A program made the position numbers and the translations under genes. A stretch of DNA of 63,163 nt, filler included, from Asterionella formosa (lineage: Eukaryota), in the NCBI GenBank assembly GCA_002256025.1. It is 20 parts of 20 records of this genome, joined end to end, with 100 filler letters (N's around TTAATTAATTAA, not from the genome) between each part and the next. Parts side by side here need not be neighbours in the genome. Positions count along the whole stretch, not along the records: positions 21,139 to 40,787 come from NKIB01003595.1; 19 more parts are not named here. One strand, given 5' to 3'. Under the pieces are notes generated by a model. The model made no database searches, was not told the origin of the DNA, and saw only the letters and a list, made by a program, of their open reading frames with translations. Positions 345 to 61,683 of this stretch are shown piece after piece. Each line of letters starts with the position of its first letter. The stretch's first letter is position 1.

Positions 345-429
345 CCGGTACCTGGTACCTGGTACCAGGTACCAGGGGTACCTTGTAGGTTCAGGGTACC
401 AGGTACCTGGTACTGGTACCTACCGGTAG
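345..429. repeat. Palindromic GGTACC[A/T] array
   Basis: Perfect 26-bp palindrome CCTGGTACCTGGTACCAGGTACCAGG at 351-376, 18-bp palindrome at 396-413, and CTACCGGTAG at 420-429. Similar clusters occur at about 3352-3395, 8998-9015, 14364-14378, 22078-22168, 26352-26371, 35613-35632, 56001-56014 and 62706-62730. Confidence 0.95.
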
Positions 430-3439: not shown

Positions 3440-3542
3440 GTACCCCGCAATTTCCGGTAATTTTGCTGAAACTAAACGTTTAGCTATCTTTATCCCATAT
3501 TAAATTGTTAGTTTAAGCAAAGCTACCGCAACTTGCAGGTAC
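3440..3542. mobile_element. About 100-bp TA-flanked MITE, copy 1
   Basis: Aligns end to end with 56013-56114 (shared core TTTAGCTATCTTTATCC). Imperfect TIRs, consensus TA-CCTGCAAGTTGCGG...CCGCAACTTGCAGG-TA. Confidence 0.75.
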
Positions 3543-4086: not shown

Positions 4087-5192
4087 ACATGAAACCGTTA
4101 AAAGTAATCTTTTTTACGTGAAGAGTGGCATTAATGCATGTGAAGTACCACATAATTAACACTCATACGTAGACGAAATTTCGAAAAGTGGCGTATTTCG
4201 CGGCTTAGATGCAGTACCTGGTACTCTAGCTACTAAACTACTGTAGATAGAGCTGTACAGACAATCTTCACATAGTATCCTAAGTACTAAATGCATGCAT
4301 TGAGCATTGTCTAAACATAGTAACAACAGCATGTAGGCATGACAATATGTTGCAGCAATTACCAGTGTGTCACGAAAAAACCCGATTTACAGTTGATTTC
4401 AATGATAATACAAAAATAGTTTACATTTTTCGATATTCGTTTTTATTTTTCGAAACAAAAGAGTCATTTAAAATCTAGATATGAAAAATTTCAATCATTA
4501 ATAGAAACCATTTTTGATTTGCCAGATATTTAGTCAAAAAAAGTAAAACACCACCTTCCTGGACTAACTCATTGTATCCTTATTAACTCCGACGTCCAAC
4601 ACTTGTAGTCTAGAAGTGTAGTCCTGGAGAATGTAATCAGACTCAGTAGCAGTGCCGAAATTTTAATTGTATCGACACAACATGAGTCACACGTCAGATG
4701 ACAATATCCTTACGGGCAAACCAGCGCTTGATCCGTTTTTCAAGTGCCTTCAGATAAAGATTTGCGTTCCCAGGTTGCTTCCTCTTAACATCAACACTTA
4801 GCATCCTAGTGGTGCATGCCCTATCTTGAAGTCGAAGCGGGTTGAATAGAGTCTTCAAGCCTTCAAAGTCAGCAGCTCGTGTCCACAGAAAATGATTTGA
4901 TTGGCTAACCTCAATTTCTATCACGATCCAAGTCATATAACCTACACGATTTATTACAATCATAGAATTGGGTACACAAGTGTAAACACTCTATGAATTA
5001 CTATTGAACCCTTGAAAAATTAGAGCGCACCAGCATTGCACCGAAGATGGAAATTCAAATGATCCTACATCTAAGCCGCGAAATACGCCACTTTTCGAAA
5101 TTTCGTCTACGTATGAGTGTTAATTATGTGGTACTTCACATGCATTAATGCCACTCTTCACGTAAAAAAGATTACTTTTAACGGTTTCATGT
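4087..5192. repeat. Perfect 125-bp inverted repeat pair (4087-4211 / 5068-5192)
   Basis: The arms are exact reverse complements and the right arm runs off the contig. The left side also has internal direct repeats (3970-4001 vs 4158-4189) and a 21-bp tandem unit AAAACTTCACATGAAAC. Confidence 0.95.
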
Positions 5193-5774: not shown

Positions 5775-6515
5775 AACAAGGAAAGACGACACAACAATGA
5801 ACGTGATGGCTGGTTGTTGAGGATACCGGTATGTGATATGCATCAGTCCATATCACAAATCATATTATAGTGATGTACATATCAATGCATCCGTATACTT
5901 AGATCCTATCCACTGTATAATACTATCATATTAACTGTTGACTTTAAGTGTATACATTAAACGACAAACATATATAATAATTAACATACTTTATGATTGC
6001 TTGATTTATTTTTTTATGATGTCCTGGTAACATTTGCGTACATATTTTATCGTATTTTATTGTCATGGTATTATTTTAACATGATCATATTTTGATCAAA
6101 ATTATATCATATACATTTTATAAAATCATCATAGTTTTATGATCAATTGTATCATAGCTATGTGATGTGCTTTATTCAATATTACGTATCATACTTTGGT
6201 GATGTATGCATCGATGTAACCCTATCATGATATCACAGTATCATCTTATCAATCATGATGAGATGATTGGGAAGCAAATGTATTCTGCAACGTGCTACAC
6301 AGGGTATATTATTATATCACGCAATTTAGTAGCGAAGTCACTCCGCCTGTAATGTACTAAAGTCGACAGTGCACATACCGGTACTCACACGCTAATCAGG
6401 TTTGAGGCAATGGACAGTGGTTCCAACGAGCGAATGATGATACCACGGGTACCAATTTTTCCAACGAAAGAACTTGTCTCTCTATTGATGAGGATGACAC
6501 GGACACCGACTTTTC
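5769..6515 (+). repeat. Dispersed repeat family B, copy 1 (at least 750 bp, AT-rich)
   Basis: Collinear with 44195-44945, e.g. AATGAACGTGATGGCTGGTTGTTGAGGATACCGGTATGTGATATGCATCA and GATGAGGATGACACG.ACACCGACTTTTC. Confidence 0.95.
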
Positions 6516-10632: not shown

Positions 10633-11802
10633 ATGTGCAATAATAGCAATGCTATTCATAATGACCTATTGATTATATCTCACGTCAGTCATCACCTGGA
10701 TGATATTGCTTATTTAAAGGTTGAATACACTATGGATACCGCTGTTGCTGTAATGCGGGACATATATAATTGCATCAACAGACATGACATCCTACATACA
10801 AACCAGGGTCCGATTCCAGTTTCCTGTTTTACTTCTAAGGATGCATTAATGTTAATTAACTTCTCTCTTAGCGCCACGACTGGTGGATGCTATAGCTATG
10901 CAAAAAAGACTACAAGTATTATTTGATAGTGGAGGATCCTTATCTTCAATACATGAAGTGGTTATGCCTGAAGGTATTTCTTTGTCAAACGAGACTTCCC
11001 AATTAATACATACCATAGCTGGTACTTATTCATCTCATGCCAGTGTTTTTTTACATGATATAATTGTACATGAATTCAATCAAGCTGCTCGTATTTTACA
11101 TCAAAAGTGTCAAGTTTTTGATGGGGTCTATGCACATTTGATGCTCAATGGCCAATGCACATTTGATGCTATTTTAGGACGTGCTTTCCTTCATCAAGTT
11201 GGTTTACCTATTAAACAACAAGTCTTGTATAGAGATGATTGTTCCTATTCATCCTCTCACATTTTTTGCTGATGGAAAACGTTTACACCATGATGGATTA
11301 TTATATTTTGATGCGCGCACCTATGATTGTGGAATCCTCATATGCGCTGGAAAATAAAGCTGCTGAATATAATTACATGAATATTGATACAGCCAGTGGT
11401 GGATAAACAGTTGTATTTGACAGCAGTCCAACGGTCAAGTTTACAAACCATTTTGTCTAAATATCAACAAACTTTATTTGATTGCAAATTATAAGTTTAT
11501 CCTCATAAACAAGTACATTTGGAATTATTATCAGATGTTATTCCCTGTCATCAATGAGCGTATCCAGTCGCCCATATTAATATAAAAGTTTTCAAAACCG
11601 AATTACAACGGTTATGTGATATTGGCGTCCTAAATATGTGGTGCTTCCAAATGGGCATCTCCCACTTCTATCATATTCGCAAAAAAGATGGAAGTGTCAG
11701 ATTTTCGTGAATTAAATAAATTCATCAATCGCATTATTTATTATTTACTTCGAATACAACTAGTCTCCCGAAACGTGCTGGATATGCATTTTTCACCAAA
11801 TT
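10633..11802 (+). mobile_element. Degenerate Ty3/Gypsy pol fragment (aspartic protease + start of RT)
   Basis: VLFDSGGS protease active site and FDAILGRAFL..VG. Then AYPVAH...VFKTELQRLCDIGVL, WASPT, KKDGSVR and RELNK across stops and frameshifts. Protease directly before RT is the Gypsy order. Confidence 0.9.
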
Positions 11803-22405: not shown

Positions 22406-22529
22406 TCACTTCTGCAGAGAAGTGGCAGTTATCCCTCATAGATATTTTGAAAAGCTTCGAAGCCCCTTTTTTGGGATCGTTACGATTCCAAGAGGGATAC
22501 CGGTAATTGCCACTTCTCTCCAGAAATGA
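22406..22529. mobile_element. 124-bp hairpin/MITE-like element
   Basis: Arms TCACTTCTGCAGAGAAGTGGCAGTTA and TAATTGCCACTTCTCTCCAGAAATGA (3 mismatches in 26), extended by TCCCTC/GAGGGA. Confidence 0.7.
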
Positions 22530-26259: not shown

Positions 26260-27320
26260 TCACCATCCTCTGATGTCAACCCTTAAATTAGCGAGGAGCA
26301 CATTTGCATCAAGAATTTGCAGCATGCATACATTCATATGCGTCCGTTACACTACCGGGTACCAGGTACCCCGAGAAATCCTTGAATTGCCTGACCAATT
26401 TGCGTTAGATGAGCAATTTAGATTTGTATTCCTGATTGTCATACAAGTACCATATTGATGGCTTCATTACCTTAAACATACTCCATCCTTCGAAGGCGCA
26501 ATGTGTCGAAGCCACAATGTTTTTCGTTGTTGTGTAAACTTTCCTTGTCATAGCTATGCTTTACTGCGATATTTCTTTTCATGAAGCAGGCATTGTTTGT
26601 TAACATGACAGAATAATTTCAAATATATTTGCCATGCATATAGTTGTAAAATTTGTAAATATATAAATATATCGAGTGTCGTACATTTACAAGATTCAAA
26701 TGCACTCTCAATATGGCACGTCTGGTAGCTAGTATTTTTGAGATGATCATATTTGCATCTAGATAATTCGAAAATATTCAATGCACCATGTGTCCATTGT
26801 CTTCCATGACTTCGTGTGCCGGCACTGTTTCTGAAATTTGTTTGCATCAATATTTTCTACTTCCGTTAGAACAAATTATCTAGACCATTCAAATGGTGTA
26901 AGTCACAACCCATTTGTATCATTATTTTTAAGCAAGGATTTTGGTAGCAAATTATTTAAGCCCCTTTTTTGGGCGGTCGTTCTTCATGTTTACATCATAT
27001 GATCATAACATTTTATCATATAAATACAGAGTACCAGTAGCAGGTAGGAAATGATATACTGGGGGTAGTCGGAGTAGTAAGACAGTAAAGCATCAAAGTT
27101 TCAGGATCATATGATTGTAAAATTGAAAACAAAATATGCTATTACTCAATCTTGGTTCTGATTGTATATGATAATGTAAATTGCACTGTCAGTCTTACGG
27201 TATCATATCTAGACAGCGTAAAACATTTTATATAGTGGCGAATTATTCATTTCATTTTAGCAACACCTGATTTTAAGATCATCGAACTTTTGAAAACAAC
27301 CACAGTTACCTGGTTGTAAA

Positions 27321-28308
27321 ATGTCTTCAAAAAACCATAAAGAGGTTCATGGAAACAAGCGACATGTGGCAAATACTACCGGTATGGAACAAAAAAGAAA
27401 GTACCAAAATGAGTTCGCAAAGAAAAAGCGAATCGGAGATTATTCAGAGGAACCCAATCGGCGAAAAGGAGTTAGTGGGATACTACCCCATCATCCATCA
27501 GCCACAAAGGCTCCTGTAATTGATACTGAAAGCGATGATGACATTTCTTTTTCAGTTGTTGATACAAGAAATATGGCTCCTGTCGATGATACCATTAATT
27601 TCTCCCGGATGGAGATGGACAACATGGTTCCATACCATAAATTTTCTAATCATACGGACAAACAAGTACATGAAAGGCTAAAAGGGAAAATCATTTTGCA
27701 CTTGCCAAAGGATATTTTCAGTTGGTCAATGAACTCAATGACTACAAAGGTCGTAATTCGGCTCAAAACTTTTCCATACGATGCTAGTATCAAGCCTTGT
27801 TATCAGAATGTCATTCCCGCTTAGCTAAAATTGAACCATCAATTGTCACAAAGCTTGTGAGTTTTTTTTTCTTTCAAGACCAAGAAGTTTCGCAGTGAAC
27901 AATATCAATCAAATGCGCTTTTTCCTGTTCCCAAAAGAGAATCAAAGCAACATTCCGCCCTATCTGGTCCAAGTAGTATGAAAGACATTTTCAATCACAA
28001 ACAGGATTGGTTCGCCCAATGTTGCCTAACTTGGCTAAACACAGTATAACCTGAGTTAGTAGGCAAAGAAGTGGAGAGTGACCCAGAGCTTGCCGATTTC
28101 ATATGGAATGGTTCTGATGCACTACTTCTGATGAATCAGACCATTGAATGTACCAACAAGGCACATTTGGATCTACATCAAATCAACATTTGGTGGCATG
28201 TGCATTTAAAAGTTGAGAGAATGTCAGAATGTATTGAATAATCAATTTAAAGGAATCTTAGGTAAGTTCTTGCAGGGGGGGGGAGATGCTCCGNNNNNNN
28301 NNNCCCCC

Positions 28309-28376
<68 letters not shown>

Positions 28377-29243
28377 ATGCTCCGAAAGGATGATGTTTTG
28401 AGTCAGTGATTATATTCTTATCAAATATGTTTCAATTCAAAAATACTAACATAATTCATGACACACCAGCTGCTGGTCTAACAGGATATAGCTAACTTCC
28501 AGACTATGGATATTGATGACTTTATTAGGTGGGCGTTCATGCTTTATCATTTTGCGCAGTCAGAGGACATTGACAGGGGAATCCATTGTCTGGCGTGATG
28601 TTCTTGCTCCAGTGTATTTTATAGGCAGGACAAGCCATGGAGAACCATTTTTAACAGGAGACAAATCTGGTGTGACCAAGCCAAATTTCAACTAAGTCTT
28701 CGTGCACAGTGTGAATTGCAATCACGTTTTGTTGGTTTGCTGATCAATGCCAGTACAGAAGCATTTTGCTTCTTGGTGCTGAAAGGAAAATTCCGATTGC
28801 AACAAAAATATTTGGGTTTCAATCCAGATACCACGCAGGAAATTTCAGAGAAGCAACGATATTCGTCATTCTACTGATTTTGTCGACATTGTTGGAAAAC
28901 CACTTATCAAAAAAGTGTGAGGGAATAAAGTTAAGTTTCAAATGGTCTCACTGATCAATGGACTGATGATTTACTTCTTGGTTATTATAAGGAAATCTAC
29001 ACTGGACTTTCACAAAGGAATCGATCTGAATATGGAAGGAATCCTAGTGGAATTGCTACTTGTTCCACAACAAATATTATCTACCCACACTCATACTTCT
29101 CATTTCCCAACGTAAGTGAAGACGATATGCATCAAAATGTTGAACCACTCTAACCAAATGTTCCTGAAAAGAATATTGCTGATTACAGTGACCGCATTAA
29201 TCAATGGGACATTGATGACGATGTTGATTTTGAATGGATCTAA
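27321..29243 (+). pseudogene. Decayed intron-containing gene X (putative CACTA/Plavaka accessory protein)
   Basis: Segments LAKIEPSIVTK..FKTKKFRSEQ, GKEVESDPELADFIWNGSDA, STFGGMCI, FIRWAFMLYHFAQ and STEAFCFLVL. Intron 28262-28469 (GTAAG...TACTAAC...CAG). Homologous to 33960-34720 on the minus strand. Confidence 0.7.
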
Positions 29244-29329
29244 TAGAATCCAATGCCTACTTAGTAGTTACATAATAAATATAGTTAGTGTGAGACTTCC
29301 ACAATTCAAAACATATCATAAATGTTAAG

Positions 29330-31700
29330 AAAACATTGACGCTGCTCTATACTATATATCAATCATTTTTATAGCGCTGTTATCCTAGCCTATTTCTAGA
29401 TTTGGCGTTATTGCGCTCCATGGCCCATTGTGAGGTGGGGCGGTGTGAGATGTGTTGGTGGTCACTCCCTCGAGTAGAAGTGTTGGTTAAAAAAATTCGG
29501 TAGCTGCGATCTTTGGTCCTTACCATGTAGCTGAGTGGTGCATGTCAGCTTGGGAATTGGATTCGTAGTGTGGATTGTTTGTAGTGGGTTCTTTTGGGCC
29601 ACACACGAGAGTTTCGACGGATTGCTGGTGTCGGAGTTCTTTTTGTCTCCTGTGCTTTATTGCTTGAGAAAAACGTGTATATAGACTCCCTGTCCCTTTT
29701 GTGACTGCTGTTTGGATGCGTGAAATATGTATTTTGCTCGTTCCAGAAACCTAATTTTTCGGTTCAGTTGGGAGTCAAGCAGATTATGTAGTGCGATTGA
29801 GAAGAGATGGGAATCCCGTCTGCATATTTCTTCTTTATGCTGGTAGTTTTTTGTAATTTGCTGATCGAGATCAGATTGTGCTATGTTGAGGTTGACGTTG
29901 CGATGGAGAATTTCATTTCTGTCTGTCCATGATCTATGGACAACAACCATCCATAGATTTGTAATAGCTGAAGGTACCCACAATTGATGTAATTTTCCTG
30001 GTGCCATGTTGTCGTCGATGTCGGAACTCTTTGCTGCCTTGTTCCAGCGCTTTGCCAAATACCCCCGAAGAGTGAGTCACTTGCCCAATGCGCCCTAATG
30101 TTTGAGCGATTGATAGATGATCTGTTTTGTTTTTTCCGAAGTAAGAGGTACAAAGTGGGGTGTGAAAGGCTTTTCATTCTGTGTCATCAAATGTCTGATA
30201 TAATCTAGTAACCATACTGGTGTCACTTTTGTGCCTGTTCTTGTTTTCTGGATGGCATTTGCCATTGCTGACAGCCTGATTCCCATATTATACCGTGCTT
30301 TGGGACTTCTGCATGTGATGATGTGTTCATTGGTTTCCTGGCACCCGCATTGTGGGCAAGAGTCCTCCCCATTGTGAATTTTTGGGGCCCCACATTGGCA
30401 GTGGATAAGTTAAATCTTGGAGCTCCCAATACCGGTTCATTTTCATATACTGTCCATACTTTTGCGTCTATCTCCTGATGTTTCCATGATCTTTTTGTAA
30501 TTTGATCATAATAATATTGCCAGTGGCTAGTAGGAGTGCCTGTCCACCTCCCTAATTGTTGACGGAGCCTTAGGTGCTTTTTGGATCCTTGAGTGATTAG
30601 ATGTTTAGTAATTGCTTCTTTCCAGTTGTCTTGTTGTTGGAGCGTTGGTTTTGGTTGTTGTGGCCAGGTCCACTGTGAGCTTCGTTGTGCAATTCGATTG
30701 CACTCCACTATTTCTGGTCGAATGCATCTGCCATCCGCTGTTACTATATCTGCTAGTGAGGTGACTTGGAGATACATCCTGCACGCGGCCGTTAAGGTGA
30801 AAAAGAAGATAATCTGATATGCCTTTGTTAATGAGGAAGAGAGACATGATCATCTGATCATGTGCACATTGTGTCCTGGGTTGCCAGCATCCTCTTGTAC
30901 GTTCGATACGGAGATTGTGCATTTCCATGAAGTTCCTGAGTTGAGTTGTCCATGTTGATGTAGTATAGCCAATGGGAATCTTTGGGTGGAGGAGTAATTC
31001 CTCCTCCCTGTCAGACTCAAGCTGGGTGATTCCGTAGTGAGATATCCATCAACTTCGATATTTGGTCTTGTGCATATTGGTGAAAAAGGTAACTGTCCAT
31101 GGCTCTGATTCCTTGTTCGATTGTAAGGTCAACTAGATTCAGTGCCCCCAGCCACTGTTGAGGGACCATAAACACTGCCCGCAGGAAATTTTGATTAAAA
31201 CCCATCTTTCCCAGGCTGGCCCTACGCGCCTTCCTCTGAATTGTCTCCAATTTTTTGGCATTCATTCCCGTGATTGGGAGGGTGTAGGACATTTAGCTAG
31301 CCCAAATGGTTCGATGAGCCTGATGTGCATCCATACTGCGCACATGATTTGACATGGTTGTGGTAGCATGAATATTGCTTTTTGTGGCCAGTCTTCTGAA
31401 TTCGTCATCCCAGTTCCCAAGAGGTCATGACACAACCCCAAGTGATTTTGAGCGTATTTGGGGTGCTTTGTGATGGATCTTAGTGTAGTGTGTCTTCCTC
31501 CCTGAGATCAGTTTGAGGCTGTTGAATGTGTCTGTTGATGAGCTACACTCTCCTGGATCAGTCAGATGTGGATTCAGTGTGGATATCTTGGGGTAACCTA
31601 GGACATCCCAGTGCCAGTGAAGGATATGATAGTAGCATTTGGAGAGCTCGATGGCGCCACCTGTAGAGAATAATAAGCTTTCCCATAGTTGGGCGCATGC
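29330..31700 (-). mobile_element. Degenerate, 5'-truncated LINE (Ambal-like): end of RT and C-terminal region
   Basis: WESLLFSTGGAIELSKCYY, SYTLP...IQRKA..ASLGKMGFNQN and MYLQVTSLADIVTADG...WPQQPKP. Multiple frameshifts. Boundaries approximate. Confidence 0.85.
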
Positions 31701-32379
31701 TGCTCTATCCTACTAGTAGTGCCGGCTATACTATATGTAGCAATATTCCTCCTTTTTTACTACTATGGTGGAGTGATAATTTCACGACTCTGTATTGTCC
31801 AGCACAGCATGTTGGGAGTGATGCCAAATTAATTATTATTATTTCATTTTTATTCTATCCTGATCATATCCTGACTTGGTCATCATTTGAAATTTGCAAT
31901 GTCTTTGCGGACATAGCAATGGTGTTATATGTGTAACTGCAAATTTCGGAAGAGCAAGACCCAATCTGAGTCTCACAATCGAAATTGTAGCAACCGTGGC
32001 TGGTTTTTGTGAATATGGTCACTAGTGACATTGCATGCAAGAACATCGGGTTCCTGGAATACAAAATGAAACTATGTATTGCGGTAGTGCATCGAATCAT
32101 TCAAGGAAAGAAGTTAATGGCAGTGTGGTAACTGCTGCAGCATTTAGGGAGACTAGACAAGAAGAGGAGATTATGTGTCCTATCCTTGAATCAAGTTGCC
32201 AGCGACAATTCAGCTTATAACAACAACATTCAGTCACAACAAGACGAACAATTGAGATTAAAACTTTCCAAGGATAGAATTCAGAAACCATGCAATATTC
32301 AGATTTTCAAGATCACACCGGCTTTCTCCCTGAAAATGCAATGGAAATGCCCCTTCCTCCTCAATTTCAATTTCCAAGT

Positions 32380-33800
32380 AAACATTCTCTGAACATGCAT
32401 CCAATTGAAATAGAACTCATGTTATTCCTCAACGAGAATTACCTTGCTTCCACCAGTTTACTTTGATCATCTAATGAAATGGCTGTTCAAGGCAAAAGCA
32501 ATGAAATATTTTGATGGAAGGTATCAAGCTCCATCCTACAAGAATTTGAAAAAACGCAAGGATATTTCATTTCCACCAACATTAGCTGGTGGTCAACTGT
32601 TGACAAAAAAAATACAGATTGATAACAATTCAAATATGATCATCCCACGCACACTCCATTTTTTCGAACCACTACAGCTGATGGCAGGATCGCTACGTGA
32701 TTCCGATATCATGCAACAATTTGTATGTTACCCACAAGTGAAACTTAAAACTTGTGGAGAATGCATATATGACGAACTAACTTCCGCGACTTGGTTTGAA
32801 AATGCATTCAACAATTCTCCTGCATCAGAAAATGGAGTGTTGAAGTCAAGACAGGGTGTTTCTTTGTTGCCCTAGCAGTTTTCAGTGATGGTTCACCTAT
32901 TGATAAACAAATGAAACATTCCGAGCATCCGTTTTTGTTGAACTAGCAGTTTTCAGTGATGGTTCACCTATTGATAAACAAATGAAACATTCCAAGCATC
33001 TGTGTTTGTTGACAATGTTAAACTTAACGTTAGAATGAAGGAAGAAAGTTGATGGATGGAAATTGGTATGCATCTCTTTTGCCAGACATTGAAGTCAGTG
33101 ATCTGGAGAAACAAATGAAAAATAAGTAATCTGGTGACGACTTGTCCTTATGAAGACTCAAGTTATACCATTTTGTTACAGGATTTCTATGGTCGCCTTT
33201 CGAAGATTCAAACAAGTCATATGATATTTGGGTTCATGGTCTTGGTATGACAAAAGTTTATTTCCAGATTGGAATGATCATTGGTGATACAGAAGAGCAT
33301 AACAAAATTTGTGGTTTCAGGGGTGGTAATGGATTGTATCAACGATATGTTTGTCGTGATTGCTTGGTTTCAACTGAAGATGCTGAAAATCCTGATATTG
33401 GATGTGAACGTCATAAAGTGTCAGATGTTAAAAAGGTTTTAAACAAATTTCTTGACAAAAATGCATATCCTGATGGAAAATTACCATGTATCCCACCTGA
33501 GTATTGTGTCTCCCAATCTGATGGCAAATATGCAACAGCAAACGAGTGGTGCTGTGTTATATCGCATAATCCTATCATGCCTGCACTAATAAATCATTTT
33601 TTTTGGTGGTGACTTAGAAGGATTATTTGGTGCAACTCTATTTGAGGTTCTTAATCAATTACTACTTGTAATATTTAAGTACATTATGGAATCATTGTAC
33701 ATTTATCGGACTTTCCCTGAAGAATGGACATGTTTTTAAACAAAGAAAATCACCAGATAGTCCAGAGAACATCTCTGATCAGAATCGTAGAACTATAAAT
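32380..33800 (+). mobile_element. Plavaka/CACTA-like transposase pseudogene
   Basis: YDELTSATWF, LAVFSDGSPID...HP..LTMLNL, IIGDTEEHNKICG...CRDC and GLFGATLFEVLNQ occur in the order expected for Plavaka-type transposases. Many stops and frameshifts. Confidence 0.75.
32872..33013 (+). repeat. 71-bp tandem duplication inside the transposase
   Basis: CTAGCAGTTTTCAGTGATGGTTCACCTATTGATAAACAAATGAAACATTCC... starts at 32872 and again at 32943. Confidence 0.95.
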
Positions 33801-36321: not shown

Positions 36322-36765
36322 AGATATGTACAATCGAAACAAAACAACAGTGCATAACGGCAAACAACGATGGAAGCAATCAAAAGAAGCCACGGAAGCA
36401 ATCAAATCGGAAAGTCAATAAATACAATCTACAATCCACATTCAGTGCTTCTCTGTGGTACTCACCGATCCGCTTCAACTAGCATAACAACCAGCAGACA
36501 ATGGGATCAAAGAAAGACGAAAGTTGCCTAGTATTGCAATCCCGAATAGAGCAAAGGCAGGCAAGATAGAGTGAGAACTATAATTGTGAGGACGAAATTG
36601 GGCATAACAGTACGAAAAATCAATGAATATGTGAACAATATAAGCTAACATTCTGATTTCATAAAGATATTACTGAGTCTACAGAGATAATATTATAACG
36701 TGTTCAAAGTAAGCATTAAAGTAGAGCTAGCTTAAACCATGCATGATTTTTCAGTACCACATACG
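36322..36765 (+). repeat. Dispersed repeat family A, copy 2
   Basis: Reverse-complement homolog of 1324-1766. Confidence 0.92.
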
Positions 36766-36884
36766 TATGTAGACTAGATAACTGCTGGTACTGGTAGAAT
36801 ATCCGTTAAGCATCAACACATCACCACATGCATGACCAGAGCAAAAACTTGCCACCAACATCAGATGCATTGATATCATCGTTC

Positions 36885-37335
36885 GTCTGACGAAATTGCG
36901 ACTACATGAATCCCTCAAGAAGACAAGCAATCCAACAACCAACCGCATCTGTTAGACAACGAATCGCTACTGGCATCATCACGGAACTGATTTCGCTTCA
37001 AACCGGTCATGATGGATGAAGATTGGCATGGTGAAAGGTGAATTGCCAGAGTCCACTTTTCAGGAGACGAACAAAAACGAGGTGAATTCTAGATATAAAT
37101 TACTTAAATCTGTATAGTATGTAAAATGGTGTCCTTAAGTAGACCCCTTGCCGATTTCGGCAATGCCAGGGCTGGTAAACCAAGGGGCAATTGGCATCTG
37201 TTGTCTTGCCAAAATGCGAACATATGAAATACACAAAATACATTTTGATGATGGGCAATATCGGACCTTCGGCAATTTTCGAGGTGAAGATAGGAAATAA
37301 AGAAAATATATTTTATATGATGGGCAATAGTAGGC
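36885..37335 (+). repeat. Diverged repeat family C, copy 1 (DNA-transposon-like remnant)
   Basis: TGCGAC.ACATGAATCCC, ATCCAACAACC, CATATGAAATA and TTTTATATGATGGGCAAT occur in the same order as in 47203-47710. Confidence 0.6.
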
Positions 37336-37449
37336 TAAAATTGACATTTATGCTATGGCGCTGCCAGACGATAGCTATCTTCCTCGGGTGGGGATTGCCG
37401 GTAGCAGGTATCATCCATCCCCTGCCCCACATCACTGCATGCCCATGTC

Positions 37450-40400: not shown

Positions 40401-40787
40401 TTCCAAACACCCGAAGTGCAGTACCACCTGATGAGTTATTTTATGGAAAACCAAGTGACATCTACACACACTTGATTGAGTTTGGAAGAGTTGGTTATGT
40501 TACAAACAGGTCCACAATGAAAGGGAAGTTCAAAGAGAAAGCAAATCCCATGGTAGTGATTGGCTACTATGGTGAGAACCATGCCAGGGATGTGTATCGT
40601 ATGTACAATCCAGTAACCAGTAAAGTGGTTGAAACAAGAGATATTTATGCTTGGGCAGACATAACGAATGCTACCAACGATATCAGATTGACTATGAGTG
40701 AAATTTATGACCCTGAGTTGATTTTGGAGGAGCCAGAACCTCCAGAAGTGATTGAAGAACCTGATGAGGACAGTCCTCCTATCCAAA
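37450..40787 (+). mobile_element. Ty1/Copia element, 5' part: LTR 37450-37950, gag from 38015, protease, integrase; frameshifted and cut by contig end
   Basis: LTR termini TGTTGAG...CTCAACA. Zinc knuckles CNKCGRQGH and CYSCGGFGHIARDC. Protease WLVDSGATTH. Integrase HHCC (HRKFGH...CDGC) and DDE (MDTSGP, RCDNAGE, NGVVER). Confidence 0.95.
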
Positions 40788-40899
40788 NNNNNNNNNNNNN
40801 NNNNNNNNNNNNNNNNNNNNNNNNNNNNNNNTTAATTAATTAANNNNNNNNNNNNNNNNNNNNNNNNNNNNNNNNNNNNNNNNNNNNAGGTAGAAAACA

Positions 40900-42107
40900 A
40901 TGAAGGTTTGGTTCCAGTTGTTTCTTGGAAACGCAGGACTATTGCCAGTTTATGTCACGTTGAATCAGAATGATGTCATTGCTGACTTGATGGAAGCTGT
41001 GAAGATTAAATGTGGTGACGATCTTCAAGGTGTTTCCTCAGCGCGGCTCCGTGTGTGCCCACCTGGAACTCAAGTGCCGGTTCCTGAGGGAGCTGATGAT
41101 CCAACCATGGATCCTGGAGGTCTGGTTGTTCATCTGAATTGGGGAACTAGCAGCAAGAATGCGTTCGTGATCGTGATCCTGATCGTGGTCATCCAACCTG
41201 ATATTGGTACGTGTTTTGATCTCATGGAATACCTTCTATTGTATTGTAGGTCACAGCTCCTAATACTCACGTATCATTTCGTATCATTTATCCCATACAA
41301 ATACTCGCTACTGTTGAAAAGACCAAGGAACGACGAAACGCCAGAAACAAAATGATGAGCAGGAGGAAGCCTCGACCTTAATATTGCTTATAAAGAAGAA
41401 GCTCAACGTTCATTTCAAGCGCTTGAAGGTGGATCAGGAAAAGCGAATCGTTCCACAGACAATGCATATCTACAAGATTGATCGAAACGAGCTTCCTTTT
41501 GAACCTACTTTATCTGATTCTGACGATTCTTTACCTCCTTCTGATCCCATTGTTCCCGTCTTTTCCCCCGAAGATAGTTACTGGATGAAAGGGCTCCGAA
41601 AAGTGCGGTTTAATGATTGCAAGAGACGGGGAATCTTATATCGGCCTGAAATTGTGAAGGATATGATGAAAGCGGTTGAAGATGCCTTCAATATAGGTGG
41701 TCCGGCTGGAATCATGATTAAGGGACCGCAGGGAATTGGCAAGTCGCACTCACTTGTTAACTTGATTCGTACGCTGCAATATGACAGTAGCTGCAAGTAC
41801 CTCGTAACTGTCATTCCAGACTGTCAACATTGGAACGACATTGACCATTTGTACACTGCGATCTGCAGTTCATTTGGTACTTCATTATCGGCTCTCTCAT
41901 GGTCGAGCAGCCCAGGTTCGGTTTCGCAAGAGGAACACCTCAAAACCTTTGTCAATGCGATTGACTTGATTCTTCGACGTATGAAGAAGAAATGGGTTCT
42001 GGTATTCGATCAGATCAACAGATTGTTTACTCGATTCGCGTCAGTGGATGTCAAAGATCTGCGGTCGCTTCCCTTTCCCTTTAAGATCATCAATGATATC
42101 ATGCAGG
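40900..42107 (+). CDS. Crinkler-like protein: ubiquitin-like header + P-loop NTPase, 3' truncated; exons 40900-41206 and 41322-42107
   Basis: VWFQL...VIADLMEAVK.K....L..V.SARLRV header. Intron GTACGT(41207)...AAG(41321) joins the two ORFs in frame. Walker A GPQGIGKS and Walker B-like VLVFDQ. Confidence 0.75.
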
Positions 42108-42219
42108 NNNNNNNNNNNNNNNNNNNNNNNNNNNNNNNNNNNNNNNNNNNNTTAATTAATTAANNNNNNNNNNNNNNNNNNNNNNNNNNNNNNNNNNNNN
42201 NNNNNNNAGGTAGAAAACA

Positions 42220-43427
42220 ATGAAGGTTTGGTTCCAGTTGTTTCTTGGAAACGCAGGACTATTGCCAGTTTATGTCACGTTGAATCAGAATGATGTCATT
42301 GCTGACTTGATGGAAGCTGTGAAGATTAAATGTGGTGACGATCTTCAAGGTGTTTCCTCAGCGCGGCTCCGTGTGTGCCCACCTGGAACTCAAGTGCCGG
42401 TTCCTGAGGGAGCTGATGATCCAACCATGGATCCTGGAGGTCTGGTTGTTCATCTGAATTGGGGAACTAGCAGCAAGAATGCGTTCGTGATCGTGATCCT
42501 GATCGTGGTCATCCAACCTGATATTGGTACGTGTTTTGATCTCATGGAATACCTTCTATTGTATTGTAGGTCACAGCTCCTAATACTCACGTATCATTTC
42601 GTATCATTTATCCCATACAAATACTCGCTACTGTTGAAAAGACCAAGGAACGACGAAACGCCAGAAACAAAATGATGAGCAGGAGGAAGCCTCGACCTTA
42701 ATATTGCTTATAAAGAAGAAGCTCAACGTTCATTTCAAGCGCTTGAAGGTGGATCAGGAAAAGCGAATCGTTCCACAGACAATGCATATCTACAAGATTG
42801 ATCGAAACGAGCTTCCTTTTGAACCTACTTTATCTGATTCTGACGATTCTTTACCTCCTTCTGATCCCATTGTTCCCGTCTTTTCCCCCGAAGATAGTTA
42901 CTGGATGAAAGGGCTCCGAAAAGTGCGGTTTAATGATTGCAAGAGACGGGGAATCTTATATCGGCCTGAAATTGTGAAGGATATGATGAAAGCGGTTGAA
43001 GATGCCTTCAATATAGGTGGTCCGGCTGGAATCATGATTAAGGGACCGCAGGGAATTGGCAAGTCGCACTCACTTGTTAACTTGATTCGTACGCTGCAAT
43101 ATGACAGTAGCTGCAAGTACCTCGTAACTGTCATTCCAGACTGTCAACATTGGAACGACATTGACCATTTGTACACTGCGATCTGCAGTTCATTTGGTAC
43201 TTCATTATCGGCTCTCTCATGGTCGAGCAGCCCAGGTTCGGTTTCGCAAGAGGAACACCTCAAAACCTTTGTCAATGCGATTGACTTGATTCTTCGACGC
43301 ATGAAGAAGAAATGGGTTCTGGTATTCGATCAGATCAACAGATTGTTTACTCGATTCGCGTCAGTGGATGTCAAAGATCTGCGGTCGCTTCCCTTTCCCT
43401 TTAAGATCATCAATGATATCATGCAGG
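42220..43427 (+). CDS. Second assembled copy of the Crinkler-like gene (exons 42220-42526 and 42642-43427)
   Basis: Contig 42208-43427 matches 40888-42107; the only difference seen is a synonymous T/C at 41980/43300. Confidence 0.75.
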
Positions 43428-43527: not shown

Positions 43528-43993
43528 CTTCAGAAGTGATGTCTCCCACATTTCCGCCGGTATTTTCATTCATCGCATGAGCTTGTTCATCAAATAAATG
43601 AGAATCACTGAGTTCTTCTTCATTATCAGCGATTTCAGGAGAATGATTAGCAAAGTACGACACTGGATGGAACTGTGACTCTGTAAGAAAAGACGAGTCT
43701 TCATCCGCGAAGAACAACTGTTTGGGTTTCCTTGGCTATTCGAAAGCAATCTTTCCTTCTTTTCAATCTCTGCCACTATTGAATCGGGATACTTGATTCA
43801 TTATTTTTTCTGGAGTATTATGAATCTGTTCAAATTCATTTGTTATTTGAGTGTATTCAAAGGAATCTTCGATTGATTTCATAAGTTTCTTCATCTTCTT
43901 TTCCGAAAACATTAAGTTGTGTAGTGTAAACAATTGAAGTAAGTCACGTTTCTTGTTTGACTGATACTTTGCATGAAATCCATGAAATGCCAT
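43528..43993 (-). pseudogene. Frameshifted ORF fragment of unknown function adjoining repeat B
   Basis: ORFs 43763-43993 and 43528-43717 read outward from repeat B and run off the contig. Confidence 0.3.
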
Positions 43994-44194
43994 TTGGAAA
44001 GCAAGTTGTCAAAGGACCAGAAGACTATGATGTAAAACAGTGGAAGGGAAATGCTGAGCTTTTTGCGGCGCTTGTGGAGGTGCAGCTGGTGTGATGGTAA
44101 CCAAGTGTAGTAATTGTTGAACAGAGCACAGCAGTGTAATATGCATGTTCCGCCAGTGTAGTGTTTACACAATACACATGCCGGCATCAATACA

Positions 44195-44945
44195 GCTATA
44201 ACAAGGAAAAACGACACGATAATGAACGTGATGGCTGGTTGTTGAGGATACCGGTATGTGATATGCATCAATCCATATCACAAATCATATTATAGTGATG
44301 TACATATCAACGCATCTGTATACTTAGATCCTATCCACTGTATAATCATACTATCATTTTAACTGTTGGCTTTTACTGTATGCATTAAAAGTCGAATTTA
44401 TATACAATGTTACAAAATTATAATTTATTTATTTATTTTCTATGATGTATTGATAACACTTGCGTACATCTTTTATCGTATTTTATTATCATTGTATTAT
44501 TTTAACATGATCATTTTTTGAACAAAAATATATATCTTAAACATTTTAAGAAATCGTCACAGTTATATGATCAATGCATCATAGATATGTGATATACTTT
44601 ATACAATATTACGTATCATACTTTGGTGATGTATGCATCGATGTAACCCTATCGTGATATCACATTATCATCTTATCAATCATGATGAGATGATTGGGAA
44701 CCTTAGTATTCTGCATCGTACTACAGAGTATGATATTATAACACGCACTTGAGTAGCTAAGTCACTCCTGTAATGTAAACAAGTCGACAGTGCACGAACA
44801 CCCACGCTAAGCAGTTGAGGCAACGGACAGTGGTTCCAAAGAGCGAATGACAATACCACGGGTACCAATTTTTGCAGCGGCAAACCGCAATGATGAAGGA
44901 CACTTGTCCCTCTTTTGATGAGGATGACACGAACACCGACTTTTC
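44195..44945 (+). repeat. Dispersed repeat family B, copy 2
   Basis: Collinear with 5769-6515. Confidence 0.95.
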
Positions 44946-45210
44946 TAGGAGCAAACAACAATGAAGAGACCCACTTGTCCCTCTATTGATGGTATCAAAG
45001 ATGCGGACAAGTTCAATAGTAAATACAAGTACAGCATGCCAAATGCAGAAACGAGCGACATGAAAAAGAAATTGTAATCAGAATCATTCTATAACTATAG
45101 CTATGTGGACTGTAGTCTGTTACATTTTCGTATCTCCTTCTATGCTGAATCTCAATAATAGATGATGTATCATGTGAGAATTTAAAATGTCAACAAGAAC
45201 AAGTAGAATG

Positions 45211-45786
45211 TGTTTGTTCAGGGGTTGATTGGCGAGATTGGAATGCAGGTGGTCGACGAAACGGATTTACAAGGTGCACTGTATGCGGAACCATTACGAG
45301 TTTGAATGATTTCTTCTCTGTAAACTCTTAATTGAATGATTATGAACAAAGGTTCACTGCACATGACAATTACTCAAAGATATAATGATCACATGACCAA
45401 CAATTGAAGACGTCATTATCGCAAACAATCATTCCACTTGTCATTGCTAGAATTTCGTTAGATGATCACAATCCTATGATGCATTATGGAAATATCATAG
45501 TTTTTATTTGCAGACATACGGTAAAGCCGGTACCAAGCTGTACCTGGGCTGACGTGGTAAAAGGTACAACGCAAGCAAAAGCAATCAGAGGCCAGGAAAT
45601 GTTAAAATGCAATGTGAGTAATAAGAGTGTTTTGAGACCATTACCTCGAAACAATCCAGTTAGTAAAGTGAAAGTTTAAGTTGACAACTTCTTTGTTGCT
45701 ATCAATTTCATCAACTGTATTCAATTGACACAGTAGTACTAGGTTCAAGGCCTACAATACGGTCGATTATGGTATTTGAAACAACA
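45211..45786 (+). mobile_element. Possible decayed LTR
   Basis: TGTTTGTTC...GAAACAACA imperfect termini, preceded by purine-rich AAGAACAAGTAGAATG. No TSD and no partner LTR. Confidence 0.3.
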
Positions 45787-47202: not shown

Positions 47203-47710
47203 GTGACGAAGCAAGCATGATGCGACCACATGAATCCCATAAGAAGTCGAATTATCCAACAACCACCCAGATCCATTTGATACAGAGTCGATGTTTGAGA
47301 CATCAATGAACAGAGTTGTTATACCTTGGACCATGCTGGAAGATAGCAGGGAGGTAAATTATGAAATTGCCATTGACACTTTACAGAAAACCATCATATT
47401 GTGCCTTCACGTAGCTCATCCTAGTCCCTTCCAATTTCGGCAGTCCATTTTCCTTAAGTAAACGGCAGTCCATAGGGGGCAATAGCTAGATGTCAGTAGT
47501 CCATTTCCCTTAAATAAACGGCAGTCCATTTTGGTAGGCAAATCTAGGAGCTATTGAAAATATTGAAGGTAGTTTGGCAGTCCAAAAACGGAGCATATGA
47601 AATATTCACATGTGTTTTATATGATGGGCAATTGCAGGATTGAGTAATTCAAAAAACTGTACATGTGAAATATTCAATATATGATTTTTATGAAGGGCAA
47701 TTGGATAGTT
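47203..47710 (+). repeat. Diverged repeat family C, copy 2, with GGCAGTCCA subterminal repeats
   Basis: Homologous motifs to 36885-37335. Repeated CGGCAGTCCAT and CCTTAA.TAAACGG units at 47438-47585. Confidence 0.6.
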
Positions 47711-48153
47711 CGCATCCAACATACAAACTATCTAAAATAGGTTTTCAATGTTAACAGAAAGGGCCATGTAGTCGCGAAAAGCTCGCCGATAGCTAGTTTG
47801 TGAATTGCCTACCGGTAGTTAAGACCCTACTCGGGAGGAGTCTGTCTACTCCTAACCTTGTGTTCGAGGCTTGGGAGGCGCGAGTAGGTTGACCGAACGA
47901 GTGGCGCCCGGCCCGCAGGCACTCTCCACCCTCGGTCGTGTCTTACCTTCAGCAATCGAACGATCCTACCCCGAAGCAGGACTAGAATAGTACCACAGGC
48001 AGTATCACATCAATCAATAATGATCCAGCAACGAAAGGAAGCCTCCTGGTGGTAGATCGGCACGGAAGCTGAGTATATCAACGTAGGGATAGAAAGACTA
48101 CCCAGTATCCAGTTTCCTTCAGCGCTTCCACCAACAAGACAACTCTCGAAGTC

Positions 48154-53926: not shown

Positions 53927-53995
53927 TAACCACTTCCTCAAAGTGTGTTCGCCTGGAGAGTCATAATCCAAATCTAGATTTCTTCATTACATACC

Positions 53996-56114: not shown

Positions 56115-58031
56115 TTCCTATGTACAACTATTGTTCCGACACGATGAGCGACTAACCTAGCTCGATCCACGTGCTTCAAAGAAGCCCTCTGTAGAAGCAA
56201 TAAATATTTTCTACGCGAGTCGGTTAGATTTGTATATTTAGGTGAGTACCGGCATAACGCTAAATAGCAATACATGAGCAGCGTTTAGGCTTTTGAATTT
56301 ACTTGAATTTCGCTAGCCAGCATAATTGTTGTGCTCTACATGGAGTAGTATGCAATAATCAAGATTGGCTGACTGCAAATGCAACAAACAAGAGTAAAAA
56401 TACTACCTTGCTAAATGAAAATTTGGCATCACGGCCACACAAAATGAACATCGATGGGCAATCTTGGGCCTCAAGGCCAACAACAATGGCCATTCTTGTG
56501 ACCTTATCCATGGAAGTGGCCGAAATATAGTGCCAGGCAGCATAATTGGATTTCTTGAAGTCAGTGTTGTCAATGAATTGACAGACAAAGGAGAGACTGC
56601 TATTGCAGTTATTTTGTTGAGGGACAACAGAGAAGTCACAAGGGAGAATGGCAAGGCTTGTTTTGTTGTGTTGGCTTTCTTGGCAGAAATTTGATCAAAT
56701 ATGCTCCTCTTTACATTGGGAGGTATGCTGAGGTGCAGGAGTTGTTGGAAATTTTCTTTGGATGTCTCTATGAGATGCAAGAGCAAACATGGATTTGGAG
56801 TAGGAACTTTTTCTTTTTCCAATGAAATTATTAAACTGGATAAGGTTAAACATGATGTTATTGGCGATGAGAATATCAAGCCATCTAGGAAAATTAAGAA
56901 TAAAGAATACAAAGTACTGGTAGAGGAGGTTGTAGAAATAGAATAGTATATTAATCTTAATGAATTAGACTCATACTTTTCGACTTGAAGTTTTCATTCT
57001 CTATCTTTCATAGTATGAAGCAAAGTAAATCTATGGTAGATATAAACATAATGTACAGACATAAAACAAAACCATTCTATTTGTTCATGACGGGAAGGTA
57101 GGTTGTTCCTTTGCAGCCACTAGGGCGCCAGGTGCCAAAACCCCTCAATCGTAGAATGAAAACAAAAACAATAAACTAATCCTCATTGTGAATCGCCAAA
57201 ATCCCACCATTGTCCTCAATTTAATTCTAACTGACCATCATTTCACCCAGACAAATCAAACAGGGGGCACCCTCCTCCTGCCATCTGCCCATGTCGACCT
57301 CCATTCCACTGGCCCTTCTTGACCCCTGGCTCGACAACCCTCTCGATGTACGGGGGAGAACCTGTTATGGTAGATCAGCAAAATTCACTTTTATGCTACA
57401 AGTTCTCAGCTTTCCACAACCCTTACTGACCTTATGGCTGCTGCCAGCATTATCGACTTCTTCTTCCTTGAACACTTCATCACCAAGCCTTTCTCAGTTA
57501 AGATTGACACTATCAACCTTAATGCTTTCTCACTCCACTGTAACAACATGTTCAAACTTTAAGTCATCCCCAAAGAATGGAAACCAGATCAGAGCCTTGC
57601 CGACTTCCCCATTACGGATTTGCTGAAGGCAAGACACGCCAACGATGGTCTTTTGCCTGCAAGTTTACATGTGTGCGAGGCTGGGTGGCGAAAGTAGGTT
57701 GACCATATAAGTGGCGCCCCCTGTCTACAAGCTCATAATCTCTCTTTAAGGGTCCGATAACCGAATGAATCAGCCGGTGCGAAGTCCGACTTGATTACTT
57801 ACATGGATCAATTATCAAAAAGGAAAGGTATAAACATATAATCCTTAGATAAGTGATCTTAAATGCAGGCTTCTGATCCATCGCTAGCGCCTCCTCATTC
57901 AAACAGCCAGTCACCCATACCACAACAGATAGTAGGCCAGTCTACTTCATTCAATTTTACTTAGTAGGGTCCAGGAATATGGTGAAATTTCCCTTATATT
58001 AGACTTGAGTAAATTTTACTAGCTCTGCAGG

Positions 58032-58740
58032 ATGGCGCGCTTTCTTCCGTAAAGTGGAAAATGAGAAAGCTTTTCATCTTGCAAGAAAAACGTGACACCA
58101 CGGATGAAGCATGTGAACTCCCCAGCAACATCAAGGCTGTTGCATGTAAGTTTGGCATTGGCGCCACCCAAATTCATTGCTGGAAAGCAAACTTTCATGG
58201 TTTCAACAATCTTTATTCCAATGCAGAGGCTTATTGTCAGATGTGGGTTGTCTTCAATTGAAAAGCAGACTTTTCATTTAGGCAAGCCACATAGCATTAA
58301 TGCAGCTGAATTTGCTGCAATTCGTCTTGTGTATGATCAGCTTTGTGCTGACAATCATGATTGTTTGGTCATGTTGCTTGCTGCTGAGCTGAAGCGCTTG
58401 TCATAACATGTTGTTAGCTTGAGCATCTTTCAACAGCATATCTTGTTGGTGTGCATCTCAAAACATTGTGTATTGCCATATTACCCACAAGGCGAAAAAC
58501 AAGTGCAGTGAACTGAGCATCATGCAGAAGTATCTCCAATACATAAAAGCGCAGTTTCTTGAAGGATTGTATCGTCCTCCTAATATCATAAATATAGATG
58601 AGACAACATTTACATTGATATGGTGGGTGGGTGAGCTCTCACTAGCTGATAGAGGTGCAAAAACTGCCTCAAAAACCATCAGTGTATGCACCAATGTGGG
58701 TAGTAGTAGCATGCTTTCAACAGAGTTTTTGGTGTTTCCG
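58032..58740 (+). mobile_element. pogo-like (Tc1/mariner superfamily) transposase pseudogene
   Basis: HTH-like NIKAVACKFGIGATQIHCWK, then ITHKA and IINIDET (first Asp of the pogo DDD domain). Frameshifted and truncated. Confidence 0.72.
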
Positions 58741-59093
58741 GGTCTGTCTCGTCTAATAGGGACCTGGTACCATGATAGTAGTGTCTAACATTGAAAATTA
58801 AAGTCTATATCTTTTAAGAGCTTATGATATTGAGGAATAAAAAGTAAGGTATGTTAGCTCTGGTATACATGATTGAGAATATTATTTGTTGATGAAGGAT
58901 TTGCATAAACCTTTCATACGAAACGTGATTTCAAAAAGACGGAATTAGTTATTCCATTTTCAGGTAGCAAGTGTCACAATGACGAAAATATGTGGTATAA
59001 TACAGAGTGGACCTCAAGAAATCATAGATACGAATAATGTAGTGTTCCATTTCAGTAGCAGTATCGACGTAGTGTCATGCACAATCACTCAAG

Positions 59094-61652: not shown

Positions 61653-61683
<31 letters not shown>

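What the first reader, a model, noticed from the sequence alone, without database searches (positions are those of the whole stretch)
22406..22529. A process that writes short palindromes into TA sites: six readable events
Seen by comparing copies in the window: (1) in this hairpin the right arm has TA-CCGG-TA (22498-22505) where the left arm has a single TA. (2) Repeat B copy 1 has TACCGGTA (6376-6383), 6 bp longer than copy 2 at about 44796. (3) Repeat A copy 2 has TAGTA (36529-36533) where copy 1 has TA (1553). (4) In gene X, removing GCTA from TAGCTA (28489-28494) restores GLTGYNFQTMDIDDFIRW, gap-free against paralog GVTEDNFNKLGPSKFMGW. Inferred from frame or family motif: (5) in the Gypsy fragment, removing GCTA at 10893-10898 joins two ORFs into TTGGCYMQKRLQVLFDSG. 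(6) In the Copia integrase, TACTA (40565-40569) adds an extra Tyr to the GY-x-x-NH motif. Every event has the form TA + (C/G, GC or CCGG) + TA. Established: Tc1/mariner elements duplicate TA and leave TA-N(2-5)-TA footprints on excision. Inference: this genome carries a very dense record of insertion-excision cycles, or some other TA-targeted cut-and-repair activity, acting as a major mutagen of non-essential DNA.
Basis: partly seen in the sequence, partly recalled or inferred. Interest (0 to 1): 0.8.

Follow-up and report, generated by a model that had tools for sequence, protein, structure and literature searches.

The report
Two kinds of transposon excision scars
The tiny insertions that pepper this alga's non-coding DNA are real but come from at least two processes, one confined to TA sites and a commoner one that hits almost any base pair step, and each has a resident jumping gene as its likely source.

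Summary
Five of six events hold against other genomic copies; event 5 is not an insertion. The single TA-targeted process is wrong. Of 314 polarised insertions in repeats, 14 are TA-only with CC..GG-type fillers, and 158 are a duplicated dinucleotide around C, G or GC, 113 of them not at TA. TACCGGTA (44-fold enriched) fits annealing of CCG overhangs from resident Passer-like pogo elements with TA|CCG ends. The larger class is enriched in repeat and unmatched non-coding DNA, not coding DNA. Its ends are C..G while the filler is G|C, and 1 of its 30 half-sites is TA against 28% of scars, so this link is about even odds. The scan earlier noted TACCGGTA, NN-GC-NN and the Plavaka family on other pieces of this genome; the listed notes did not link the last two.

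The parts
22498..22505 (.). Class 1 scar TA-CCGG-TA (event 1) in the right arm of an internal hairpin (22406-22529) of a TTAA-flanked 1.14-kb non-autonomous element
6376..6383 (.). Class 1 scar (event 2), inherited by a young subfamily of repeat B
36529..36533 (.). TA-G-TA (event 3), class 2 form at TA
28489..28494 (.). TA-GC-TA (event 4), class 2 form, shared by about half of the copies
40565..40569 (.). TA-C-TA (event 6), class 2 form but also a perfect tandem repeat
10893..10898 (.). Event 5: TAGCTA made by substitutions, not an insertion
28470..28474 (.). Non-TA class 2 form CT-G-CT (also a perfect tandem repeat)
31997..32002 (.). Non-TA class 2 scar TG-GC-TG
   Evidence: 13 of 15 homologous copies lack it
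32125..32129 (.). Non-TA class 2 scar GT-G-GT
   Evidence: 12 of 14 lack it
43999..44004 (.). Non-TA class 2 scar AA-GC-AA
   Evidence: 7 of 8 lack it
44345..44349 (.). Non-TA class 2 scar AT-C-AT
   Evidence: 33 of 33 lack it
26434..33790 (+).
43528..45516 (+).
57953..58746 (+). Decayed fragment of a pogo family whose full-length copies end in TA|CCG
   Evidence: 72-78% identity to L194, L185, L174
56017..56110 (.). 88-bp MITE with CTG duplication, sitting in a TAC|CWG|GTA-like site; a user of the 9-mer, not shown to be its maker

Best explanation
The insertions are mostly scars left when cut-and-paste transposons excise and the break is end-joined, from at least two unrelated superfamilies. 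Class 1 (TA only): Passer-like pogo elements insert at TA, duplicate it, and on excision leave 3-base 3' overhangs CCG on both flanks; these anneal by their self-complementary CG tips and are filled in, giving TA-CCGG-TA, or overlap by one mismatched base, giving TA-CCSGG-TA. Shown: the scars, their derived state, the elements, their ends and TA duplications. Inferred: the overhang length and the annealing. Class 2 (any dinucleotide, about ten times commoner among polarised insertions): a 2-base staggered cut plus one G:C pair contributed by either or both sides. The most likely source is the abundant Plavaka (CMCT) family or its relatives, which duplicate 2 bp at almost any site. Shown: the scar rule, the element, its 2-bp non-TA duplications. 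Inferred and untested: that the terminal C is caught in a flank hairpin and opened so that its complement G is written, which would turn C..G ends into G|C. TA-CCWGG-TA is a third TA-only scar, two thirds in G-TA-C context, whose element was not found.
For: Insertions of 3-7 bases outnumber deletions of 3-7 bases 245 to 23. 53 of 54 three-base insertions with an exact 2-base duplication have C or G as filler; 48 of 52 four-base ones with a 2-3 base duplication have GC; none has CG. CCGG and CCWGG fillers are enriched between TA pairs and hardly between other pairs. DDE_1 search gave 93 matches; ten loci of one family are at least 99% identical with different flanks and end TA|CCGTA; five loci show both CCG ends flanked by TA; one sits in a repeat with 32 empty-site alignments. 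TACCSGGTA, predicted from a one-base overlap, is 13-fold enriched. Passer leaves 0-4 bp footprints (PMC9976928, passages); Tc1/mariner leave 3-base 3' overhangs (PMC7827188, passages). Plavaka family: 622 exact terminal 15-mers against 0 for the control; 2-bp duplication in 6 of 7 both-end copies, none TA; non-TA dinucleotide spectrum of its 29 half-sites does not differ from that of the scars (chi-square p=0.76, low power); fungal Plavaka also make 2-bp duplications and share motifs with RAG1 and Transib (PMC12730594, passages), which cut by flank hairpins (PMC5499845, passages).
Against: No site was found where one copy holds the element and a sister copy holds the scar (0 of 30 Plavaka ends, 0 of 29 pogo ends). 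TA is 1 of 30 Plavaka half-sites but 45 of 158 scars (Fisher p=0.002). The Plavaka ends are C..G, the filler G|C; the hairpin geometry needed differs from that described for Hermes/Ac (PMC2921059, passages). A pogo family with TA|CAG ends is resident yet TACWGTA is not enriched (1.1-fold). CCG-ended relatives in other organisms had no TACCGGTA in 25 short loci (little flank). Class 2 three-base events run at about 22 per 1000 substitutions in three of four identity bins (pairs not independent), which looks clock-like. Only about 1.3% of the genome was examined.
Confidence: 0.62

Rival explanations
1. Class 1 as above, but class 2 comes from another, unfound element with 5'-G..C-3' ends and a TA-biased 2-bp duplication (for example ISL2EU- or PHISTA-like) that leaves a one-base 3' G overhang on each flank.
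For: One G per flank explains G, C and GC with no special geometry. ISL2EU makes 2-bp duplications (PMC4122938, passages). The genome has 423 DDE_Tnp_4 candidates, 150 scored, and ends were read for one family only.
Against: That one family has 3-bp TNA flanks. Three structural screens of about 0.9 Mb found no recurrent G-ended family with 2-bp duplications, although the same screens also missed the Plavaka ends.
Confidence: 0.2
2. Class 2 is a host process: a topoisomerase VI or Spo11-type cut with a 2-base 5' overhang is filled in, and a repair polymerase adds one untemplated G to one or both 3' ends before joining.
For: Any dinucleotide is hit with an A/T bias; the signal is equal in repeat and unmatched non-coding DNA (1.54 and 1.52); the rate tracks substitutions. 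That these enzymes leave 2-base overhangs is recalled, not checked here.
Against: Plain 2-base duplications, the expected main product, are 14 against 158 with filler. I know of no polymerase that adds exactly one G so strictly (recalled). A resident element already supplies 2-bp non-TA duplications.
Confidence: 0.13
3. One reading: one TA-targeted Tc1/mariner-type process writes all the fillers.
For: 59 of 314 insertions are TA-flanked and TA is the favoured class 2 site; TA-C/G-TA could include one-base pogo scars.
Against: 113 same-form insertions are not at TA; XY-GC-XY is enriched with TA left out, z about 10.8; all pogo ends seen are flanked by TA and begin with C.
Confidence: 0.03
4. 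Replication slippage with later point mutation, or alignment artefact.
For: 48 of 101 three-base and 9 of 57 four-base class 2 events are also perfect tandem repeats, event 6 among them.
Against: Simulated slippage gives the GC form in 9.5% of four-base and the CCGG form in 0.6% of six-base insertions against 76% and 50% seen; the alignment-free word counts agree.
Confidence: 0.02

Closest known systems
Passer (DD35D) family of pogo transposons and their 0-4 bp footprints (PMC9976928, passages read; figure with the letters not seen)
   Same: DD35D spacing, Brk/HTH-like N-terminus, about 421 aa, 2.46 kb, 26-28 bp terminal repeats, TA duplication; a 4-bp footprint is within the reported range.
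   Different: Algal host; one scar dominates and has accumulated to about one per 2.3 kb of non-coding DNA; no phylogeny was built.
Sleeping Beauty / mariner canonical footprint (PMC7827188, passages read)
   Same: TA duplication around bases from 3-base 3' overhangs, repaired by end joining.
   Different: There the filler equals one 3-base overhang; here the main filler is 4 bases, as expected if CCG overhangs anneal by two bases.
Plavaka elements of the CMCT clade (PMC12730594, passages read; red algal Plavaka, bioRxiv 10.1101/2025.02.11.637652, one passage read)
   Same: Plavaka-type transposase with C(2)C and H(3)H motifs, terminal inverted repeats, 2-bp duplication, accessory genes.
   Different: Ends are 5'-CGT..ACG-3', not TGT..ACA or CATCA..TGATG; I found no report of their excision footprints.
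CACTA (Tpn12, Tgm9) and hAT (Ac) footprints (bioRxiv 10.64898/2026.08.24.746626, PMC4015899, PMC2921059; passages read)
   Same: Tpn12 leaves 3-5 bp with a 3-bp duplication, that is 0-2 extra bases, as class 2 has 1-2; Ac footprints show exchange of a base for its complement, ascribed to hairpin opening.
   Different: In Ac the exchanged base is a flank base and so varies; here the extra base is constant. The CACTA footprint letters are in figures that I could not see.

Membership tests
Passer-type pogo (source of class 1) | DDE_1 transposase with 35 residues between second and third D | tested here: met
   Pfam DDE_1 E=1e-21; spacing counted by me on the translation
Passer-type pogo (source of class 1) | Short terminal inverted repeats and TA duplication | tested here: met
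   L182, L183, L185, L193, L194
Passer-type pogo (source of class 1) | Clade membership in a transposase tree | not tested
   no tree built
Tc1/mariner-type excision footprint (class 1) | TA duplicated, filler derivable from element ends | tested here: met
   CCGG and CCSGG from CCG ends; CCWGG not derivable from any end found
Tc1/mariner-type excision footprint (class 1) | Scar seen at a former donor site | tested here: inconclusive
   0 of 29 ends, 5 with homologous sites
Tc1/mariner-type excision footprint (class 2) | Restriction to TA | tested here: not met
   113 of 158 not at TA
Plavaka (CMCT) | Plavaka transposase domain | tested here: met
   Indirect: the genomic fragment had no Pfam match itself; its two homologues (41% and 38%) match PF18759 over the cut-off and align to window 32227-33748
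Plavaka (CMCT) | C(2)C and H(3-4)H motifs | tested here: met
   read by eye in the translations
Plavaka (CMCT) | Terminal inverted repeats with 2-3 bp duplication | tested here: met
   6 of 7 both-end copies
PlavakaA or PlavakaB subgroup | Termini TGT..ACA or CATCA..TGATG | tested here: not met
   terminal base C in 20, T in 8, G in 2 of 30 ends; T read as CpG decay
Plavaka excision footprint (class 2) | Scar dinucleotide spectrum equals the element's target spectrum | tested here: inconclusive
   non-TA part agrees (p=0.76), TA share does not (p=0.002)
Plavaka excision footprint (class 2) | Flank-hairpin cleavage that includes the terminal base | not testable with these tools
   needs biochemistry

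The most novel reading that the evidence does not exclude
The commonest small insertion in this alga's non-coding DNA, a duplicated dinucleotide around G, C or GC at roughly 3 per 100 substitutions, is made by a chemistry not yet described: either a Plavaka transposase that folds its own terminal base into the flank hairpin and so writes its complement into the host, or a host nuclease and polymerase pair that cuts with a 2-base stagger and adds exactly one G per end.
Probability: 0.45. Interest if true: 0.75.

Novelty: new variant of a known kind. Interest (0 to 1): 0.55.

Why it matters
Excision scars are textbook, but here they dominate the insertion spectrum: 172 of 314 polarised insertions have one of these forms, so they break genes in repeats and reshape intergenic DNA. 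My estimate is about one NN-GC-NN scar per kb of non-coding DNA, beside one TACCGGTA per 2.3 kb. If class 2 is Plavaka-made, the genome holds a very large natural read-out of target choice and cutting geometry for a RAG-related transposase group for which my searches found no footprint data. It also warns that enriched palindromes such as TACCGGTA upstream of genes may be mutational scars, not selected promoter motifs.

Tried and rejected
Tc1/mariner DDE_3 search: 0 of 16 candidates. Young Harbinger-type family (over 40 near-identical hits): 3-bp TNA flanks, does not fit either class. Repeat A: its two ends both read GC but in a fixed R|GC..GC|A context with no duplication, so it targets GC and does not explain the filler. 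MITE with CWG duplication: uses TAC|CWG|GTA-like sites, not shown to create them. My early idea of a 3-bp duplication plus one base: the GC reading covers the same cases and those with only 2 bases duplicated. Repeat-specific cutting: the signal is equal outside matched repeats (unmatched DNA may hold unrecognised repeats). Structural screens for G-ended elements: none. Filled-site versus scar pairs: none. Contigs of four runs on 43528-63163: other isolates differ by a few substitutions per 10 kb; among the 12 of 20 indel rows shown, one 4-base gap (46589) has class 2 form but lies in a repeat; uninformative. Viral contig scan for the Plavaka protein: nothing. Rfam on the hairpin: nothing. Atlas hit for the Plavaka fragment was below its recognition threshold and served as a lead only. 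Papers without usable footprint letters: PMC3193017 (passages and section 18), PMC4773125, PMC4219821, PMC4423477 (passages). In one search alignments of 99.5% identity or more, under 120 bases or under 78% were dropped, and events needed at least 5 covering copies and 75% support, so shared old insertions such as events 2 and 4 are not counted.

Full report
Setting. The window is a string of contigs joined by artificial N-TTAATTAATTAA-N spacers from a 68-Mb fragmented eukaryotic assembly that occurs in freshwater samples. Earlier scan notes call it a diatom; I did not test that. I held about 0.9 Mb of it.

The six events. All strings are present. Against other copies, events 1 and 3 are private insertions (2 of 47 alignments, both the window's own site; 1 of 37), events 2 and 4 are old insertions carried by 30 of 37 and 17 of 35 alignments, and event 6 is present in 5 and absent in 7 of 13 copies but is also a perfect tandem repeat. 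Event 5 fails: 13 of 13 other copies have the same length there, and the window copy is instead 10-11 bases shorter near 10862. The hairpin at 22406-22529 is real (z = -6.4), has no Rfam match and is internal to a TTAA-flanked element of about 1.14 kb; it is a bystander.

The insertion spectrum. I polarised indels in repeats without a consensus: an insertion counts if at least 75% of at least 5 homologous copies lack it. In 241 kb of covered sequence this gave 314 insertions and 126 deletions; at 3-7 bases the ratio is 245 to 23. Classification: 101 three-base insertions of form NN + C or G + NN, 57 four-base of form NN + GC + NN, 14 TA-only events (9 CCGG, 2 CCWGG, 1 each CCSGG, CCG, CTGG), 41 single-base, 22 two-base (14 duplications), 13 other tandem, 66 other. 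Among three-base insertions with exactly two bases duplicated the filler is C or G in 53 of 54; among four-base ones with 2-3 bases duplicated it is GC in 48 of 52; none is CG. Simulated random insertions give the GC form in 1% and slippage with 8% mutation in 9.5%, against 76% seen. Only 45 of the 158 are at TA, a 3.75-fold excess; AA/TT is next at 1.3-fold. An alignment-free count agrees: XY-GC-XY with TA left out is 1.54-fold in repeats, 1.52-fold in unmatched non-coding DNA (z about 10.8 each) and 0.93-fold in long ORFs, while other fillers reach 1.27 at most. In contrast CCGG is enriched only between TA pairs (119 sites against 2.7 expected in 275 kb), more so in unmatched non-coding DNA (0.59 per kb) than in repeats (0.24). 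So there are at least two processes.

Class 1. A DDE_1 search gave 93 matches. Ten loci of one family are at least 99% identical, have an open frame, different flanks and the end TA|CCGTAAAACC; that 12-mer occurs 135 times against 44 for the control. A second family ends TA|CCGTATACTT; five loci show both ends with TA on each side, and one sits in the hairpin element at a TA with 32 empty-site alignments. The catalytic spacing is DD35D (counted), the mark of the Passer family, whose footprints are 0-4 bp (PMC9976928, passages). Tc1/mariner-type enzymes nick three bases inside the end and leave 3-base 3' overhangs on the flanks (PMC7827188, passages). Inference: two CCG overhangs pair by their CG tips and give TA-CCGG-TA; a one-base overlap gives TA-CCSGG-TA (13-fold enriched); a three-base overlap gives TA-CSG-TA (1.7-fold). 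Against: a TA|CAG family is also resident and its expected scar is not enriched (1.1-fold); CCG ends are conserved in relatives from other organisms but their 25 short loci hold no TACCGGTA; no filled-versus-scar pair was found. I put class 1 = pogo at about 0.8. TACCWGGTA is TA-only, 66% in G-TA-C context, seen twice as a one-step insertion, and unexplained by any end I found; since it recreates GTAC, repeated hits would build the GGTACCW arrays of the window (inference).

Class 2. This needs a 2-base stagger at nearly any site. Harbinger, repeat A and the CWG MITE did not fit. Of 7 copies with both ends, 6 have a 2-bp duplication (AC, TG, TC, AA, TT, AA) and one has AC/AG. Its transposase has two homologues at 41% and 38% that match Pfam Plavaka and shows C(2)C and H(3)H motifs. 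Fungal Plavaka also make 2-bp duplications and share these motifs with EnSpm, Transib and RAG1 (PMC12730594, passages); Transib and RAG cut through flank hairpins (PMC5499845, passages). The filler is the complement of the terminal base on each side. Inference: if the first nick falls one base inside the end, the terminal C forms the hairpin tip; opening on its 5' side leaves a 5' C that is filled in as G, giving NN-G, C-NN or both. This geometry is my proposal. It differs from the Hermes/Ac model (PMC2921059, passages). The non-TA target spectrum of the element matches the scars (p=0.76, 29 half-sites, low power) but TA does not (1 of 30 against 45 of 158, p=0.002); other Plavaka families, which earlier notes suggest exist, or pogo-made TA-C/G-TA could fill that gap, but this is untested. 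Class 2 three-base events stay near 22 per 1000 substitutions down to 88% identity and 16 below it (pairs not independent), which fits long-running transposition or a host process. I put Plavaka or its relatives at about 0.5, an unfound G-ended element at 0.25-0.3, a host cut-and-add process at 0.15-0.2.

What is known. Searches of the paper library for diatom with TACCGGTA gave one Phytophthora promoter-motif paper (listing only), and for diatom with transposon and excision footprint one unrelated paper (listing only); searches gave no genome-wide scar report for an alga and no Plavaka footprint. Subscription papers are mostly missing, and footprint letters for Passer, Tpn12 and Tdv1 are in figures that I could not see; bioRxiv supplements were not available. 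Within this scan, TACCGGTA, NN-GC-NN without a source and the Plavaka family were each noted on other pieces; a word search joining the last two found nothing, and the pogo end sequence found no look-alike note. I had derived both scar classes before those look-ups.

Verdict. A real and striking mutational signature, mis-framed as one TA-targeted process. Class 1 is a known kind of footprint with a matched resident element. Class 2 is larger, not TA-specific, and now has a concrete candidate source with two stated mismatches. New variant of a known kind; interest 0.55.

Noticed in passing
window 56017-56110 and 3447-3540; L004, L123, L139, L148, L154, L155: A MITE family of about 90 bp with ends CAAGTTGCGG and a CWG duplication that prefers (G/T)AC|CWG|GT(A/C) sites, so it may home to TACCWGGTA scars.
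   Followed up: partly
window 36322-37354 and 1330-2500; L062-L089: Repeat A is an element of about 2 kb with no terminal inverted repeat at one end, an internal inverted copy of the other end about 110 bp inside, a fixed RGCA-like target and no duplication; 569 exact end motifs against 0. Helentron- or recombinase-like; unclassified.
   Followed up: partly
L229-L248 (G000:C584 and others): A very young Harbinger-type family with over 40 near-identical transposase hits and TNA flanks; contigs break at the same internal point.
   Followed up: partly
window 4087-5192; L067, L114, L019, L022, L027: Many long, nearly perfect inverted duplications of 1-4 kb; fold-back rearrangements or assembly artefacts.
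   Followed up: no
window 40888-42107 and 42208-43427: Two near-identical contigs with an AAA/STAND-like ORF behind a ubiquitin-like N-terminal piece of Crinkler-like layout (label recalled; only the AAA match is).
   Followed up: no
window 349-428, 62708-62730: Tandem GGTACCW arrays; a contig of run X2 across 62695-62905 has 8 gap letters, 1 of them listed at 62860, so the array length may vary between isolates.
   Followed up: no
window 40565-40569; L205-L208, L213: The in-frame 3-base gain in the Copia integrase region is shared by five copies, four identical, so that lineage kept multiplying or is split among contigs.
   Followed up: partly
window 28294-28377: An 87-base insertion made mostly of a C run, absent from 22 or more homologous copies; possibly an assembly artefact.
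   Followed up: no
L275: A metagenome locus unrelated to the query with 18 TAGCTA in 2.7 kb.
   Followed up: no
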